Shown in pieces: positions 18,678 to 27,993 of a stretch of 32,000 bases of DNA. Positions within the stretch are counted from its first letter, which is position 1. Each line of letters opens with the position of its first letter. The position numbers were made by a program, and so were the translations under genes. The stretch comes from Saccharolobus solfataricus (lineage in GTDB: Archaea; Thermoproteota; Thermoprotei_A; Sulfolobales; Sulfolobaceae), in NCBI RefSeq assembly GCF_900079115.1, contig NZ_LT549890.1, positions 1,680,001 through 1,712,000 of the forward strand. The letters are read 5' to 3'. The notes under the pieces are model-generated. The model ran no database searches. It saw only the letters and a list, made by a program, of their open reading frames with translations, and was not told where the DNA came from.

Positions 18678-19510
18678 TCACCCAATGGATGATGTATGAA
18701 TTTTCCAAAAAATATTTCGCAAAACTGTTTATATAATATAGTATGAAGAATAAACAGATGGAAATACATGTCTACTACACCACTTGGTGCTGCATAATTC
18801 AATTCCTTTCCACCATATGCTATATTTAGAGCCATCCATTTTTTAAATTCTAACTCTATTCTTTTTACTATATTATTATCTAGTTTACCAAAATGTGCTA
18901 TTAATGGAAATCTTTGTTCCGGCACAAATTTAAACTCATCAATAGTATGAAGTAAATTTTCTGATATAGGTGATAGGTCTAATCTTTCAAGCATGAGTAC
19001 TCGATCTAAAGTCTTATCATCCAACGATTCTAAAGCCTTTTTAGGTAATATAGTTATTTCGTTTACATTATCAGGTTTTAAATTAAATCTTAATCTGAAA
19101 CTATTATCATCATTATTTAATAATTTCTTTAATAAAACATTATCATATCTAGGTATTCCCCAAACACTTTTGCTAAATTTTTCGTATTCCTTTGTATGAA
19201 GAATAAGAAAGTGCCAATATAGATCCACAGCGCCACTTGCAGTAAATAACCTTTTAGGGAAAACAATCGTTAATGCTACAAATCGCCTAAATTCTTTTTC
19301 AATCTTTTCAGCTAATTCTCTATCCGCTTTCCCATAATAAATTTTTATAGGCCAAACTTGTTCTGGAGAAAATCTGCGTCCTTTCCATATGAAATTTGAT
19401 GTAATATATGATAGATCATATGTGTCTAAAATTTCTAGCCTCTCTTTTACTTTATCTAATCTTTCTTCTGGAACATATTTACGTAATTTCTCATCATTAA
19501 TAATACTCAC
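18668..19510 (-). CDS. Internally duplicated protein with two GRDP/DUF1399-like (...VD.Y.H..ILHT..Y..F....G) modules
   Basis: aa 27-117 and 173-269 align with each other: LD..DLS.I..N, F.PEQ, IE.EF, SG.VD.Y.H..ILHT..Y..F. Confidence 0.6.
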   Translation of the reverse strand: MSIINDEKLRKYVPEERLDKVKERLEILDTYDLSYITSNFIWKGRRFSPEQVWPIKIYYGKADRELAEKIEKEFRRFVALTIVFPKRLFTASGAVDLYWHFLILHTKEYEKFSKSVWGIPRYDNVLLKKLLNNDDNSFRLRFNLKPDNVNEITILPKKALESLDDKTLDRVLMLERLDLSPISENLLHTIDEFKFVPEQRFPLIAHFGKLDNNIVKRIELEFKKWMALNIAYGGKELNYAAPSGVVDMYFHLFILHTILYKQFCEIFFGKFIHHPLGELF

Positions 19511-21526: not shown

Positions 21527-21958
21527 AGTCAAACATCATCGTGATAGAACCCACCGGAGTATACTCAACGAGACCTTGCCAATACTTCAAAGAAAGAGGA
21601 GTGAAAGTCCTACTAGTCAGCCTTGCTATGGAAAGAAAAGGACATAAGGGGAAAGAAAACAGATTTTTACGACGCAGAAAAACTTGAAAACATGGTAAAT
21701 AATGCTAGAGAATACGTTAACAACCCCTTGAAAGAGTTAGTATCACTCTACCTCTTCATGAAGGATGTGCAAACGAAACAAGAGAACAGGTTAAGGAGAG
21801 CTCTCTTCCTCGTGAGCGACGAGGAGAAGTTGAGCGAGGAGAGATTGGAGAAGTTCTCTAAGGGAGACTTCTCTGACGTAAAACTGTATCAACTGGAATA
21901 CACTGGTACAGTACTACGTGAGATTCAAGTCCTAGCGAGGACACTACTTCAAACACGA
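21527..21958 (+). pseudogene. IS110-family transposase fragment (N-terminal domain), frameshifted and truncated by IS insertions on both sides
   Basis: The reading is ..IIVIEPTGVYS..KERGVKVLLV.. followed, after a frameshift, by GKKTDFYDAEKL... It ends at the IS5 copy 2 terminus (21959). Confidence 0.7.
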
Positions 21959-23167
21959 GACGTTGTCCGATTTGAGCAAAATTAAAAACCATTATAATTA
22001 CAACATCTCAGATTATACTATTCTTCATTATATTCAAGTATAAAAAATAATATAATATGTATTAATAAGGGAAAATACAGATAATTGTACAATTTTGCAA
22101 TAAAATTTATCATAACAACAAGTAAACACGTAAACGAACCTCGTTAATTAACGAGTACCTTCGTCCTAATCCTCGTCGAAAGAATTTCGAGATCACGATA
22201 GAGGTTAAGGAAGAATACCTCCATAACCACTCCCCTTAAGGTTGTAGACGAAGCCTTACCTTCCCTAATCTCAACACCACTACCCTCAACCGGAAGTCCA
22301 GCACTACCAACACCCTTAACTAAGACGTCCTCCCTAAAAATCCAAGCCCTATCGGCCATTAACTTAACGTTATCAAATGAAAAGGCTAGATCCCTCAAAT
22401 TAGCCAATCCAACCTTGAAGCCCCTAACGAAATTAGTCCTCCTTTCCACAAGGTTACAGACCTTAAACCCGAAGTAGGACTTACCGTGCTTCCTACCCCA
22501 ACCCTTATACTTCCTAAAGGCTGTGAAGCTCTTGAGCTTGGAAGTAGTATAACCCATGAGGAGAAAAACGTCATTGAACCCCATCTCCTTAAGGTCAAGT
22601 GAGATCTTCTCAAGACCGTTTTGAAGACTCCTCTTTCCTGGGTAGGCTTCACGGAAGAATGTGTCAATTATGTGGTAGTCCTCGAACCTATCGTTTTTTC
22701 TCTCCCAACTTCAAGTTCAAAGCCCTTTTCCCTATACTCGCTGATCGCCTTGTCCAAAGCCTTGTTTAACTCATCCATCAGTGTTGTTCTCATCGTCTCG
22801 CCCTCTTGAATAACTGTTTGTTGGAGTTTCTTGTAGAAGGAGAATACTGTGCTCTTTGGTGGAATTTTCCCGCCCAAGAAGTCCATAAACCTCTTACTGT
22901 CCCTAATTTCTCCCTCCAAGTTATTCCAAGAGATGTCGAAAATGAGCTTGATTAGGAGGACTTTGAGGAGTGAGATGACGTTCCACTTGGGCTTCTTGGA
23001 GTAAAGGGACTTAAGCTTACTCCTAAACGTTTCTCAAGGGAAGGATTTATCTACCTTGAGTAAGAGGTCCTTTTCAGTTGAAATTGCCTTTACCATAATA
23101 TTATCTCATCCTAATTTCTTATTAATATTACTCATGAATTGCCATTTTAATCAACTTGGATAACGTC
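21959..23167 (-). mobile_element. IS5-family insertion sequence, 1209 bp, copy 2
   Basis: Colinear with copy 1 with a few substitutions. Flanked by ACGA (21955-21958) and GCGA (23168-23171). Confidence 0.9.
22144..23096 (-). pseudogene. IS5-family transposase with the same TGA and frame change as copies 1 and 3
   Basis: TGA (tca on the plus strand) at 23034-23036. T6 run at 22694-22699. Confidence 0.75.
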
Positions 23168-23247
23168 GCGAGGCTTTCATTGGTGAAAGAGCGAACAAGA
23201 GAAGAAAAAGAATTTGAAATAACTCCCCAGTTTACTGAGAAAAAATT

Positions 23248-23475
23248 CTATTTAACCTTCTTTTCTAACTCCTCAACTCTCTTCTTTAACTCTTGAAGTT
23301 CTTTGTTGACTTCCTCTAAACTTATTTTATTTCCTTCTTTTTCCTTCATGTAACACTCAAAAGCGTCTTTTAGCACTTCATAAACGCTTACTTTCCTTTT
23401 CTCAGCTTCATCAACTATCTTCTTCCACAGTTCCTCATCTGGGAAATAAACAGATTTGTAACCAGGTCTTGGCAT
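23248..23475 (-). CDS. RHH-like DNA-binding protein with a C-terminal coiled coil (plasmid/virus-type small regulator)
   Basis: 75 aa. KSVYFPDE (strand) is followed by two helices (LWKKIVDEAEKRK, VYEVLKDAFECYM) and a heptad tail. GAGGT lies 5 nt upstream of the ATG. Confidence 0.55.
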   Translation of the reverse strand: MPRPGYKSVYFPDEELWKKIVDEAEKRKVSVYEVLKDAFECYMKEKEGNKISLEEVNKELQELKKRVEELEKKVK

Positions 23476-23572
23476 CTTACCTCAATATACTTTATTGTAC
23501 TTTAATATAAAAACTTTAATGTACCGCAAATTACCACAAAATTTATATATGTTAAAGTACAATATGGTACAT

Positions 23573-23639
23573 AGCGGGGTCAAATGATGAGCGACTGGCG
23601 GGCTGAATCCTGATGAACATGTTACGAACTGACCCCGCT
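23573..23639 (+). ncRNA. Archaeal C/D box sRNA (2'-O-methylation guide)
   Basis: C box ATGATGA at 23584-23590, 12-nt guide, D' CTGA at 23603-23606, C' TGATGA at 23611-23616, 12-nt guide, D CTGA at 23629-23632. A terminal 7-bp stem pairs AGCGGGG with CCCCGCT. TTTATATA lies at 23542-23549, about 24-31 nt upstream. Confidence 0.8.
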
Positions 23640-23718
23640 ATGTACTTCTTTGCGCTTTATAACTAATAACTTTAATCCTGTCTGGATCCCAAAAATTTTC
23701 GGTGAAAGAGCTGGCTCC

Positions 23719-24956
23719 CACGTGAGAGTGTCCGGAATGTAATTATCTGAACGAATAGATAAACAGAATGATAAATATTAATATTGCCAGAAGGATAGGA
23801 CCTGGATCACCGAGAAAAACTTTATAATGGAAAAATATCAAGACGAGAGGATTTACCTATCGCGCATAGCGTTGCCTGATCGCGAGGAGGCGCGTCTCAG
23901 AGCTGAACGGCTCTACGTCCTGGAGGAGTCCTCCGTTGGATCGCGAGGAACATCTTGATGTTGTAGATCACTCCCAGGACGTGAAGGAAGACGTCGTTCC
24001 TCCAGGTCGTGGTCCCGTAGGGCCTCCAGAACGCGTTCAGGTAGGTGCCGAAGAACTCCACGTGGACCCTCAGGGTAGTGAAGGGCTTCTCCCGCGCTAT
24101 GAGCTGTGTCGGGGAGGGAGAGAATCCCCTGTCCGTGATCTTAATCCCCTTGAGCGGTGACTTGAACCTCTTGTCCGAGAAGTTGGCCGGCTTCACCGTG
24201 ATGGACCTCACGAAGAGGGAGACGGAGATCACGGCCACTGCCTTGAGCCCGTAGTGCGAGACCCCTCTCTTCTTGGTCCACCTTCCCTCGAACCTCCTCT
24301 TGGTTCTCCCCAGGGAGAGCAGCTTCCTGGCCCTCTCCAGGTTACCTTCCCTCCTCTCCAGCTCCGCCTTCTCCCGAAAGGTCTCCACGCTCCTCTTCCC
24401 AGGAGGTAAGTCCAGTAGGAAGGAGTCCACTAGCCACGCCATGAAGTCCACGAGATGCGCGCTCGCAGGGAGGTAACTGGGTAGGCACTTCTCCTCAAGC
24501 TTGAAGGAAATCTCCAACAACTTCTTCCTCACCCCGTACAACCTGCCCACGAAGTCGTGCAGCGTGCTCTTCCCCACCTTCCTCCCCACGAACCAGGCCA
24601 CGACCACGTTCACGTTGACCATTTTCACCGCGTCCCTATAGGAGCAGGAGTAGAGCACCATGACGATTAACAACTTCAGGTAAACCAGCGCGCCCTCGCC
24701 AAGAACCCTCTCCAAATCCATAGCGTCCAGCACGGGCTTGATCTCCGTTAACCATTTTTCCCTCCACGGCATATCCTCTATTGGGGGAAGAGGGTAGTAC
24801 ATCAAGTTTGGTATGTGTCTTAATGTTCTTGCCATGGTACTACCCTCTACTCCCATAACTTAAGTGTTACTCCAATTTAATCCAAGATAATGCTAAAAAT
24901 CAATTTATTCTTGTCAATAAAAATTCAATTTTTTACATTCCGGACACTCTCACGTG
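23719..24956 (-). mobile_element. IS5-family insertion sequence, about 1234-1238 bp (ISC1234-like by size), GC-rich
   Basis: Perfect 24-bp TIR CACGTGAGAGTGTCCGGAATGTAA at 23719-23742, with its reverse complement at 24933-24956. The exact ends are ambiguous because the CACGTG tips are palindromic. Confidence 0.85.
23897..24856 (-). CDS. IS5-family DDE transposase
   Basis: 319 aa. DUF772-like N-domain (LKLLIVMVLYSCSYRDAVKMVNVNVVVAWFVG...STLHDFVGRL), HYGLKAVAV..ANFSD, ITDRGF and RVHVEFFGTYLN. Confidence 0.75.
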   Translation of the reverse strand: MGVEGSTMARTLRHIPNLMYYPLPPIEDMPWREKWLTEIKPVLDAMDLERVLGEGALVYLKLLIVMVLYSCSYRDAVKMVNVNVVVAWFVGRKVGKSTLHDFVGRLYGVRKKLLEISFKLEEKCLPSYLPASAHLVDFMAWLVDSFLLDLPPGKRSVETFREKAELERREGNLERARKLLSLGRTKRRFEGRWTKKRGVSHYGLKAVAVISVSLFVRSITVKPANFSDKRFKSPLKGIKITDRGFSPSPTQLIAREKPFTTLRVHVEFFGTYLNAFWRPYGTTTWRNDVFLHVLGVIYNIKMFLAIQRRTPPGRRAVQL

Positions 24957-25095
24957 AAAGTAAACAGGATTAACAAATATGTTAATCTTGAGGGGAGGGG
25001 TTAAGCAAAAGAATTTTTGATTGCGTTTAAGGATATGTACAGTTCTGTTAATCCTACCTAAGGTTTATTAATGAGATTTTTACGATAAAATAATT

Positions 25096-25317
25096 GTGCA
25101 AAAACTTCAAAATACTGAGAAAATATTGATAATATTATCTCATGGATGTGCTACTTTAGAGCGTTTAGAGGAAAAGACTGGAATACCAAGAGAAGAGCTA
25201 CTAGTTTACCTGACCAGACTGTATAATAGGGGGTTAATCTATAGAAAGTGGCAAAAATATGGAGGGAAAAAGTTCAGGGAATATTGTTTAAAAAACAGAG
25301 ATGAGATTTTACGTTAA
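25096..25317 (+). CDS. Small winged-helix DNA-binding protein
   Basis: 73 aa with a GTG start. The pattern ILIILSHGCATLERLEEKTGIPREELLVYLTRLYNRGLIYRK is helix-turn-helix plus wing. Confidence 0.5.
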   Translation: MQKLQNTEKILIILSHGCATLERLEEKTGIPREELLVYLTRLYNRGLIYRKWQKYGGKKFREYCLKNRDEILR

Positions 25318-25465
25318 CCGGGGAGTTAACGGAGAAACCCTCTTTCCTTTCAACTAGAACTTGAAATTCCATTTTACATTACTCATTTTTTGCATTATTA
25401 TAAACAAGTAAACCGGAAAACTTGACGAGTTTCCAAAACGTTTCTGAGAAAACAAAACAGCTCTC

Positions 25466-25503
25466 TCGAGCCCGTGACCTGGGTTCAAATCCCGGCCGCG
25501 GCA
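25466..25503 (+). other. tRNA 3'-half remnant (variable region, T-arm, acceptor 3' strand): att-like footprint of an integrative element
   Basis: The T-arm is CTGGG-TTCAAAT-CCCGG, followed by CCGCGGC-A. Upstream sequence cannot form anticodon or D arms, and no matching 5' half (GCCGCGG...) occurs in the window. Confidence 0.65.
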
Positions 25504-25815
25504 CTAATTCCTCATAAATAGACCGCCTACATAGCTAGGGAAGGTTAGCGTCAGTAAATGTTAAGAATAAGCGCAATTTAGCTATCCACCTTTCCTAAAA
25601 AATTGTTTAGATACAACGAAATGACGAGTATGAACTCTTGAATTTTGAATATGCTATTACGTTCTTACCTACTAGAACTTTTTACATTGATCAAGAGTAA
25701 AGGAAAAAAAAAGGTGTTTAAGATAAATCTAATTGAGGAAAATGGGGAAAAAGTTTAAAGTTAATATTATAGGATTGATTGTCATAGCAAGTTATTACGC
25801 GGATACGGGTAGTAG

Positions 25816-26335: not shown

Positions 26336-26619
26336 AAGAATATTATATCAAGAGATCCAAAGTGTATAATTATAGAACTAGCATGGGGAGATGGAGCTAC
26401 TTCTAAGCCTAATGAGTGGATTGAACTGCTAAGACAGAAGGGATTTAAAATATTTTTATTCAGATTAACTGCTAATAGAAAAGATATTGAAGAAAGAGTT
26501 AGGGAAAGGTATGAAAAAACTCATGAAGGACCTACCGTTAATAGTGCTCTTGAAATTTATGATTGGTATATGAATAAAAAATGTTTTATCGATTTTCCTA
26601 AAAAATGTGGATTGAACGA
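26336..26619 (+). pseudogene. Start-less fragment resembling the C-terminal part of a P-loop kinase (AAA_33-like); 3' end at the IS junction
   Basis: The open frame reads ..CIIIELAWGDGATSKPNEWIELLRQKGFKIFLFRLTANRKDIEERVRERYEKTHEG...FPKKCGLN. There is no P-loop and no start codon after the stop at 26333-26335. Confidence 0.3.

Positions 26620-27993
<1,374 letters not shown>

What the first reader, a model, noticed from the sequence alone, without database searches (positions are those of the whole stretch)
23573..23639. Textbook C/D box sRNA sitting inside transposon cargo, divergent from an RHH regulator gene
The sequence agcggggtcaa-ATGATGA-gcgactggcggg-CTGA-atcc-TGATGA-acatgttacgaa-CTGA-ccccgct has all four boxes in order. 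Both guide spacers are exactly 12 nt, the archaeal standard. A 7-bp terminal stem closes the RNA, and a TTTATATA box lies about 24-31 nt upstream. The ORF track cannot reveal it. Its location is unusual: it lies within a relic of an integrated element that is itself cargo of the composite transposon. A methylation guide could therefore be horizontally mobile here. The predicted target strands are 5'-CCCGCCAGUCGC-3' (D' guide) and 5'-UUCGUAACAUGU-3' (D guide).
Basis: partly seen in the sequence, partly recalled or inferred. Interest (0 to 1): 0.6.

Follow-up and report, generated by a model that had tools for sequence, protein, structure and literature searches.

The report
Plasmid-borne box C/D guide RNA gene
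This is a real archaeal box C/D methylation-guide RNA gene from a family carried by conjugative plasmids of hot-spring archaea; its best-kept relatives match both strands of the host ribosome's decoding helix, but this copy, in a plasmid remnant between jumping genes, has drifted guides.

Summary
Window 23573-23639 (+) carries C, D', C' and D boxes in order, two 12-nt spacers, a 7-bp closing stem and a TATA box at -31 to -24. The box pattern occurs once in the window and in none of 100 shuffles.

It is one of 15 distinct sequences of a family found on conjugative plasmids (pKEF9, pB12E5), in chromosomes of five Sulfolobaceae genera and on metagenome contigs. It always lies divergent from the same 75-aa ribbon-helix-helix-like gene and usually upstream of plrA. 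C, C' and D boxes are invariant, and the closing stem covaries (6 of 7 pairs).

The pKEF9-type D' guide is a perfect 11-nt complement of 16S E. coli positions 1402-1412, predicting methylation of U1406. The best D guide pairs 10 nt with 1495-1504, predicting U1498. These are the two strands of the top of helix 44.

The window's own guides are weaker: 10 of 12 with a central mismatch, and 8 contiguous plus 1. Neither beats shuffled guides, so this copy is probably a weakened or orphan guide.

Here only about 1.1 kb of plasmid DNA survives, split by one IS and framed by two inverted IS copies. No expression data could be obtained. An earlier follow-up in this scan reached the same family-level reading on another genome. 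Rfam and the searched literature do not describe the family.

The parts
23573..23639 (+). Box C/D sRNA gene: stem arm 23573-79, C box 23584-90, D' guide 23591-602, D' box 23603-06, C' box 23611-16, D guide 23617-28, D box 23629-32, stem arm 23633-39.
   Evidence: Sequence. The pattern is unique against shuffles. It scores 80.6 bits against the family covariance model R1. Sub-threshold Rfam hits are to Sulfolobus sR3 and sR12.
23542..23549 (+). TATA box TTTATATA for the sRNA (family consensus TTTAAATA). It ends 23 nt before the stem, which places the transcription start at about 23571-23574.
   Evidence: Sequence. The same spacing is kept in relatives whose intervening sequence is unrelated. 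The start site is inferred.
23640..23718 (+). Conserved 3' flank with T-rich tracts, the likely termination and trimming zone. The family's GTAC motif is mutated to GCGC at 23652-23655 in this copy.
   Evidence: Alignments. The function is inferred.
23476..23572 (.). Divergent promoter spacer with GTAC-containing direct and inverted repeats, probably operator sites.
   Evidence: Inverted repeats I2 and I5. The spacer is highly conserved in plasmids.
23248..23475 (-). 75-aa gene for a ribbon-helix-helix-like protein with a C-terminal coiled-coil helix. It is the constant neighbour of the sRNA.
   Evidence: tblastn finds it beside every core-family copy whose flank is available, at 82-100% identity. 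In the AF2 model (pLDDT 74), most of the listed Foldseek matches are RHH proteins (CopG, pRN1 ORF56, MatP, ParG), with weak E-values.
23719..24956 (.). IS element inserted between the sRNA and plrA. It has 33-bp terminal inverted repeats and a 319-aa transposase ORF at 23897-24856 (-).
   Evidence: Repeat I3. Weak DUF772 hit. It interrupts the plasmid homology.
25096..25317 (+). plrA (Sulfolobus plasmid regulatory protein), with its own TATA box at about 25064-25071.
   Evidence: PF05584, E 1.4e-45. Promoter alignment.
21953..23170 (.). IS copy 2 (1218 bp), left border of the plasmid relic.
   Evidence: 99% inverted repeat with 26617-27834.
26617..27834 (.). IS copy 3 (1218 bp, inverted), right border.
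   Evidence: A third copy lies at 12150-13367.

Best explanation
Window 23573-23639 is a bona fide archaeal box C/D guide RNA gene. It belongs to a family that is part of the backbone of Sulfolobaceae conjugative plasmids, in the module RHH-like gene, then sRNA, then plrA. Inferred steps follow. It is transcribed from its own TATA promoter as an RNA of about 67 nt plus a 3' tail. The C/D and C'/D' motifs bind host L7Ae, and Nop5 and fibrillarin join them. The two 11-12-nt guides then pair with host stable RNA, so that the nucleotide opposite the fifth guide base upstream of D' or D is 2'-O-methylated. In the best-preserved relatives the guides pair with the two strands of the top of 16S helix 44, the decoding centre. 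Predicted sites there are U1406 and neighbours, and U1498 (E. coli numbering). This is the arrangement proposed for chaperone-type double guides. In this genome the gene survives in a plasmid remnant of about 1.1 kb, cut by one IS and framed by two others. Its guides have drifted. The D' guide pairs 10 of 12 with 1398-1409, with a C.U mismatch two positions from the predicted site C1402. The D guide pairs 8 contiguous plus 1 with 1494-1505. This copy is therefore most likely an expressed but weakened or orphan guide rather than an efficient methylation guide.
For: The anatomy is complete and non-random. There are 15 distinct family members. C, C' and D boxes are 100% identical among them, D' 93%, and the guides 74% and 84%. 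The closing stem is 95.6% paired, and 6 of 7 pairs show compensatory changes in 33 sequences; 0 of 500 shuffles reach this and slid controls collapse. The gene is on pKEF9, pB12E5 and pRT2. It is patchily present in five genera and on 11 metagenome contigs. Synteny with the RHH-like gene and plrA is constant. The pKEF9-type D' guide pairs 11 of 11 with 16S 1402-1412 (shuffle P about 0.001-0.004). The L025-type D guide has a 10-bp run on 1495-1504, and shuffled D guides put their best site there only about 0.5-1% of the time. The host 16S sequence at both sites is identical in the five Sulfolobaceae genomes where it could be read. Fibrillarin and Nop5 genes are present in the host. For this copy, the predicted D'/16S duplex is still -8.0 kcal/mol at 75 C, against -9.3 for a chromosomal host guide.
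Against: The window's own guides are no better than shuffles (longest-run P 0.96 and 0.09; score P 0.62 and 0.50). The D' guide ties with an unrelated 23S site. At family level the case is moderate, not overwhelming. G-rich shuffles land in the GC-rich 1386-1414 stretch 5-8% of the time. The commonest D' variant fits tRNA-Val nt 4-13 better than 16S. The D-guide core also matches 23S around position 1246. The guides are not more conserved than the flanks. The kink-turn geometry is atypical, with 6 nt between stem and G.A pairs, and GUCA/UGAC pairing could compete with the D box.
Confidence: 0.6

Rival explanations
1. This copy is a fully active double guide that methylates 16S C1402 and U1498. 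The single internal mismatch would be tolerated because both guides bind adjacent strands cooperatively.
For: It forms ten G/C-rich pairs with a predicted -8.0 kcal/mol at 75 C. Dennis et al. 2015 (PMC4644070) relax the 9-bp rule for double guides by allowing one mismatch or G:U pairs. The T at 23596 restores a 12-nt spacer and the 1398-1409 register relative to its nearest relatives. Boxes and promoter are intact.
Against: The complementarity is not above chance. The mismatch lies two positions from the target nucleotide. The D duplex is weak (-3.0 kcal/mol at 75 C). The surrounding plasmid is destroyed, so selection is doubtful.
Confidence: 0.2
2. The guides have been retargeted to other sites: D' to 23S C703 (7 contiguous pairs, 10 of 12) and D to 23S U1248, or to an RNA not examined such as an mRNA or plasmid transcript.
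For: The 23S sites score equally. Indel-driven target migration is documented in Pyrobaculum (PMC6009581).
Against: These matches are at chance level. No relative shares the 23S:699 complementarity. There is no perfect or one-mismatch target for D' anywhere in the genome, and the 13 one-mismatch D hits equal my rough estimate of the random expectation.
Confidence: 0.08
3. It does not act as a methylation guide. Instead it is a kink-turn RNA that serves the plasmid in another way, for example as an L7Ae-binding regulatory element or decoy, or as a cis element of plasmid replication or regulation.
For: It is embedded between conserved GTAC operator-like repeats and regulators. L7Ae is reported to bind k-turns in mRNAs (PMC5539422, abstract seen). 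The guides are not more conserved than the flanks.
Against: plrA has its own promoter about 30 nt before its start, so the RNA is not its leader. The putative pKEF9 origin is near 14 kb, not at the sRNA at 26.5 kb. The full double-guide geometry and the perfect rRNA complementarity in some members are unexplained by this reading.
Confidence: 0.07
4. It is a chance motif or a purely DNA-level inverted repeat, and not an RNA gene.
For: The window-specific 13-bp palindrome could suggest a DNA element.
Against: No shuffle matches the pattern (0 of 100). The boxes are conserved and the stem covaries across a family with unrelated flanks. A TATA box is kept at fixed spacing.
Confidence: 0.02

Closest known systems
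Sulfolobus chromosomal box C/D sRNAs (Rfam sR3 RF01133, sR12 RF01147 and others)
   Same: The box order, 12-nt spacers, short D'-C' linker and size are the same. These families give the best Rfam hits, though sub-threshold.
   Different: No Rfam family reaches its gathering score. This family is plasmid-borne. It has a G/C-rich covarying closing stem, and 5-8 nt lie between the stem and the C box.
S. acidocaldarius sR129 and its homologue in this genome (C1 about 775,160-775,225)
   Same: It is also predicted to methylate the top of 16S helix 44, at E. coli G1408 (PMC4644070).
   Different: It is chromosomal, uses the D guide only, is unrelated in sequence, and targets a different nucleotide.
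Double-guide 'chaperone' sRNAs, e.g. Nanoarchaeum equitans sR15 and sR17 (Dennis et al. 2015, PMC4644070)
   Same: [quoted passage not shown]
   Different: Their targets are helices 28 and 30, and they are chromosomal. In the present family, the best D' and best D complementarities are found in different members.
MITE-like sRNA elements of Pyrobaculum calidifontis (Lui et al. 2018, PMC6009581)
   Same: They are C/D-like genes associated with mobile DNA, with orphan or drifting guides.
   Different: Those are multicopy MITEs. This is a single gene in a conserved plasmid regulatory module.
Plasmid-borne 16S rRNA methyltransferases of bacteria (ArmA/Rmt at G1405, NpmA at A1408; from my own knowledge, not checked here)
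   Same: A mobile element causes methylation of the helix-44 A site of the host ribosome.
   Different: Those are protein enzymes that methylate bases and have a proven resistance phenotype. Here an RNA would recruit the host's ribose methylase, and no phenotype is known.

Membership tests
Archaeal box C/D sRNA | C box (RUGAUGA) near the 5' end and D box (CUGA) near the 3' end | tested here: met
   AUGAUGA at 23584-90 and CUGA at 23629-32. Both are invariant in the 15 relatives.
Archaeal box C/D sRNA | Internal D' and C' boxes with a short linker | tested here: met
   CUGA at 23603-06, a 4-nt linker, and UGAUGA at 23611-16.
Archaeal box C/D sRNA | Guide spacers of about 12 nt | tested here: met
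   Both are 12 nt here. Relatives have 11 (D') and 12 (D).
Archaeal box C/D sRNA | Terminal helix and kink-turn geometry (stem, 3-nt bulge, tandem G.A pairs) | tested here: inconclusive
   A 7-bp stem with strong covariation is present. However, 6 nt (9 in some relatives) separate the stem from the G.A pairs, and GUCA/UGAC pairing may compete.
Archaeal box C/D sRNA | At least 9 bp of guide complementarity to rRNA or tRNA, with a Watson-Crick pair at position N+5 | tested here: not met
   For this copy, D' pairs 5+5 around a mismatch and D pairs 8+1, which is not above shuffles. The feature is met by relatives: pKEF9 D' 11 of 11 and L025 D 10 bp. Orphan guides are nevertheless accepted members of the class.
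Archaeal box C/D sRNA | Expressed as a stable RNA of about 50-70 nt bound by L7Ae, Nop5 and fibrillarin | not testable with these tools
The promoter is present. Host fibrillarin and Nop5 genes are present.
Backbone module of Sulfolobales conjugative plasmids | Homologous DNA on sequenced conjugative plasmids, in conserved synteny | tested here: met
   pKEF9 matches at 84.7% and pB12E5 at 88.5% over about 450 bp, between the RHH-like gene and plrA. It is absent from pNOB8 and from the 5.2-kb pSOG1 stretch searched.

The most novel reading that the evidence does not exclude
Conjugative plasmids of Sulfolobales carry their own guide RNAs that hijack the host's fibrillarin machinery. These would ribose-methylate, or transiently hold open, the decoding-centre helix of the host 16S rRNA (U1406 and U1498). 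That would make them an RNA-guided counterpart of the plasmid-borne 16S methyltransferases of bacteria. The plasmid could benefit through altered translation, tolerance to A-site-directed toxins or antibiotics, or control of host growth after transfer.
Probability: 0.15. Interest if true: 0.85.

Novelty: new variant of a known kind. Interest (0 to 1): 0.6.

Why it matters
Box C/D guides are regarded as chromosomal housekeeping genes. [quoted passage not shown] A guide family that travels on conjugative plasmids, and whose best-kept members point at the ribosomal decoding centre, would mean that rRNA modification patterns can be transferred horizontally and can be manipulated by selfish elements. 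This is directly testable, because pKEF9 can be conjugated into laboratory Sulfolobus strains (PMC4872121). This particular copy also shows what becomes of such a guide once its plasmid has decayed in the chromosome.

Tried and rejected
Rfam gave no hit at gathering thresholds, only sub-threshold C/D hits.

A whole-genome search found no perfect target, and the one-mismatch hits are about what I estimate by chance.

In a tRNA scan, nothing significant was found for the window's guides.

Literature checks were as follows. No held paper prints the guide sequences. No paper was retrieved that links C/D box sRNAs with Sulfolobus conjugative plasmids. The supplements of Dennis 2015 and Maertens 2015 lack the sequence. 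Greve 2004 and Wurtzel 2010 are not held, so earlier mention there cannot be excluded. The last paper search was badly designed and uninformative.

Three ideas were rejected:
- 'Part of the plasmid replication origin': the pKEF9 origin is placed near 14 kb.
- 'Leader of plrA': plrA has its own promoter.
- 'The long 13-17-bp stem is functional': it is specific to this copy and partly upstream of the inferred start.

The viral contigs pattern scan found nothing. Pfam and PDB sequence searches do not identify the 75-aa protein.

Full report
OBSERVATION. It holds a C box AUGAUGA (23584-90), a 12-nt spacer, a D' box CUGA (23603-06), the 4-nt linker AUCC, a C' box UGAUGA (23611-16), a second 12-nt spacer and a D box CUGA (23629-32). 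It is closed by AGCGGGG/CCCCGCU. TTTATATA lies at 23542-23549. The four-box pattern occurs once in the window and in none of 100 dinucleotide shuffles. The stretch folds with z = -4.9. In the DNA the inverted repeat runs to 13 perfect base pairs, but relatives lack the extra pairs. With a TATA box centred about 27 nt upstream, transcription should start at about 23571-23574, so the RNA stem is the 7-bp one. One departure from the textbook form is that six nucleotides, not three, lie between the stem and the G.A pairs.

WHAT IT BELONGS TO. Rfam gives no match at gathering scores. The only RNA-class signals are sub-threshold hits to Sulfolobus C/D families, with sR3 at 24 bits and E 3e-4. BLAST against plasmids finds the region on pB12E5 of Saccharolobus shibatae B12 (88.5%) and on the conjugative plasmid pKEF9 (84.7%). 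On both it lies between a small gene and plrA. A search of 325 Sulfolobales genomes finds full copies in five genera of one family, and on both the plasmid and the chromosome of one strain. A pattern scan of metagenome contigs adds 11 more. This gives fifteen distinct sequences (alignment A2). C, C' and D boxes are 100% identical among them and D' is 93%. The guides are 74% (D') and 84% (D) identical, the linker 59%, and the flanks 81-87%. A covariance model built from these (R1) finds a wider superfamily in 17 of 47 genomes of the family. These have unrelated flanks but the same layout: a TTTAAATA box 21-26 nt before a G/C-rich stem, the boxes, and a T-rich tail. Over 33 sequences the stem is 95.6% paired, and 6 of 7 pairs show compensatory changes. 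No shuffle out of 500 reaches this, and slid controls collapse. The alignment was fitted to the model, so this leans somewhat towards the structure. I conclude that this is a functional RNA family of the box C/D class.

CONTEXT IN THE WINDOW. Plasmid homology covers only 23221-25509. That stretch holds the 75-aa gene (23248-23475, -), the sRNA, an inserted IS (23719-24956, with 33-bp inverted repeats) and plrA (25096-25317; PF05584, E 1e-45). Two inverted 1218-bp IS copies (21953-23170 and 26617-27834, 99%) frame the segment, and a third copy lies at 12150-13367. The 'relic inside IS-bounded cargo' is therefore structurally real. Transposition of the unit was not tested here.

The 75-aa protein accompanies every core-family copy whose flank is available, at 82-100% identity. 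Sequence searches do not classify it. An AlphaFold model (pLDDT 74) shows an extended N-terminus, two helices and a long C-terminal helix. Most of its listed Foldseek matches are ribbon-helix-helix proteins (CopG, pRN1 ORF56, MatP, ParG, antitoxins), at weak E-values of 0.3-1 and target TM of about 0.7. GTAC-containing repeats bracket both divergent promoters.

plrA has its own TATA box about 30 nt before its start, so the sRNA is not its leader. The putative pKEF9 origin is near 14 kb, not at the sRNA at 26.5 kb.

TARGETS. Neither 12-nt complement occurs elsewhere in the genome. The D' guide of this copy pairs 10 of 12 with 16S 1362-1373 (E. coli 1398-1409; predicted site C1402), with a C.U mismatch at guide position 7. 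It pairs equally well, 10 of 12, with 23S 699-710. The D guide pairs 8 contiguous plus 1 with 16S 1451-1462 (E. coli 1494-1505; predicted site U1498). Against shuffled guides these values are unremarkable (longest-run P 0.96 and 0.09; score P 0.62 and 0.50).

The relatives are more informative.
- The D' guide of pKEF9 and of two metagenome copies is a perfect 11-nt complement of E. coli 1402-1412, predicting U1406 (P 0.0013-0.0045). Other D' variants pair 10 of 11, or 9 plus a G:U, at the same place.
- More distant members pair with 1395-1406, 1405-1412 or 1406-1413. This is the picture expected from indel-driven target migration.
- D guides keep the core GUUACG. One member has a 10-bp run and several have 9-bp runs on 1495/6-1504, predicting U1498. 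Shuffled D guides put their best site there only 0.5-1% of the time.
- The two target stretches are the two strands of the top of helix 44. This is the arrangement Dennis et al. proposed for chaperone-type double guides (PMC4644070).
- The 16S sequence at both sites is identical in the five Sulfolobaceae genomes where it could be read, so host variation does not explain the mismatches.

Several cautions apply.
- G-rich shuffles land in the GC-rich 1386-1414 stretch 5-8% of the time.
- The commonest D' variant pairs better with tRNA-Val nt 4-13 (9 Watson-Crick pairs plus 1 G:U, predicted site U8).
- The D core also matches 23S around position 1246.
- The best D' and the best D complementarities are not in the same molecule.

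I put about 0.6-0.65 on helix 44 being the family's selected target.

MECHANISM. What is shown: the box architecture, the promoter motif, a covarying stem, conservation on plasmids, and the presence of host fibrillarin and Nop5 genes. What is inferred: transcription, RNP assembly, and guide-directed 2'-O-methylation or transient strand sequestration of 16S helix 44 by the better-kept members. For this copy the D'/16S duplex is still predicted at -8.0 kcal/mol at 75 C, against -9.3 for a chromosomal host guide. The D duplex is only -3.0. With the plasmid around it destroyed, a weakened or orphan guide is the most likely state.

COMPARISON AND NOVELTY. The RNA is a canonical box C/D sRNA in form, but no Rfam family covers it. 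The host has its own chromosomal guide aimed at helix 44: a homologue of Sac-sR129 at about 775.2 kb, predicting G1408. Dennis et al. call helix-44 predictions 'relatively sparse'. MITE-like sRNA elements are known in Pyrobaculum. [quoted passage not shown] I found no paper describing plasmid-borne C/D sRNAs, but several key older papers are not held. An earlier follow-up of this scan on another genome (e1-5640251) reports the same family-level conclusion. I read that note after my own analysis. It is an AI note and not independent evidence.

VERDICT. The gene is a new plasmid-borne variant of a known RNA class. This particular copy is probably a decaying representative. Interest 0.6.

Noticed in passing
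G000 C1:667235-667298 (+) (L085:1501-1564); pB12E5 10731-10794 (-): A second, different plasmid-linked C/D box sRNA family (guides GGGTTCCAGAG and ATGGTTGACACG in this genome). It has the same promoter, stem and terminator layout. No convincing rRNA or tRNA target was found.
   Followed up: partly
G000 C1:666751-666881 (-) (L023, L085:984-1045): A second, truncated and decayed copy of the window's sRNA. Its C box is mutated to UGACGA and homology ends after the D' guide. It lies beside a second copy of the 75-aa RHH-like gene, and the family-B sRNA lies about 130 nt downstream of that gene.
   Followed up: partly
pTC1 NC_005969 about 19170-19238 (L097:2171-2239); pSOG1 (L005:2270-2340): Further C/D-box-like genes with the same TATA spacing and G/C stem but other guides. 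The pTC1 D' guide pairs 8 Watson-Crick plus 2 G:U plus 1 further Watson-Crick pair with the tRNA-Gly D-loop. The pSOG1 D' guide pairs 10 Watson-Crick plus 1 G:U with 16S 1026-1036. pNOB8 gave no hit.
   Followed up: partly
G000 C1: about 775,160-775,225 (+): A chromosomal host C/D sRNA whose D guide AGUGGAGCGACA is complementary to 16S E. coli 1405-1414, predicting Gm1408. It is the counterpart of S. acidocaldarius sR129.
   Followed up: partly
L079 (G282:C15:17743-17809, -): A related sRNA whose D' guide is an 11-nt perfect complement of the anticodon-loop region of tRNA-Ser(GCU).
   Followed up: no
window 23652-23655: The GTAC core of the conserved TTTGTACTTTA repeat just downstream of the sRNA is GCGC in this copy only. 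It may be a lost operator site.
   Followed up: no
window 24960-25075: Repeated TGTTAATC(C/T)T motifs lie upstream of plrA and are conserved in pB12E5 and G309. They are likely PlrA operator sites.
   Followed up: no
pB12E5 34569-34880 (L003:1570-1881): A RelE/ParE-family toxin gene lies about 620 nt from the RHH-like gene on pB12E5. RelE acts in the ribosomal A site, next to the predicted methylation sites. This is a coincidence worth a look.
   Followed up: no
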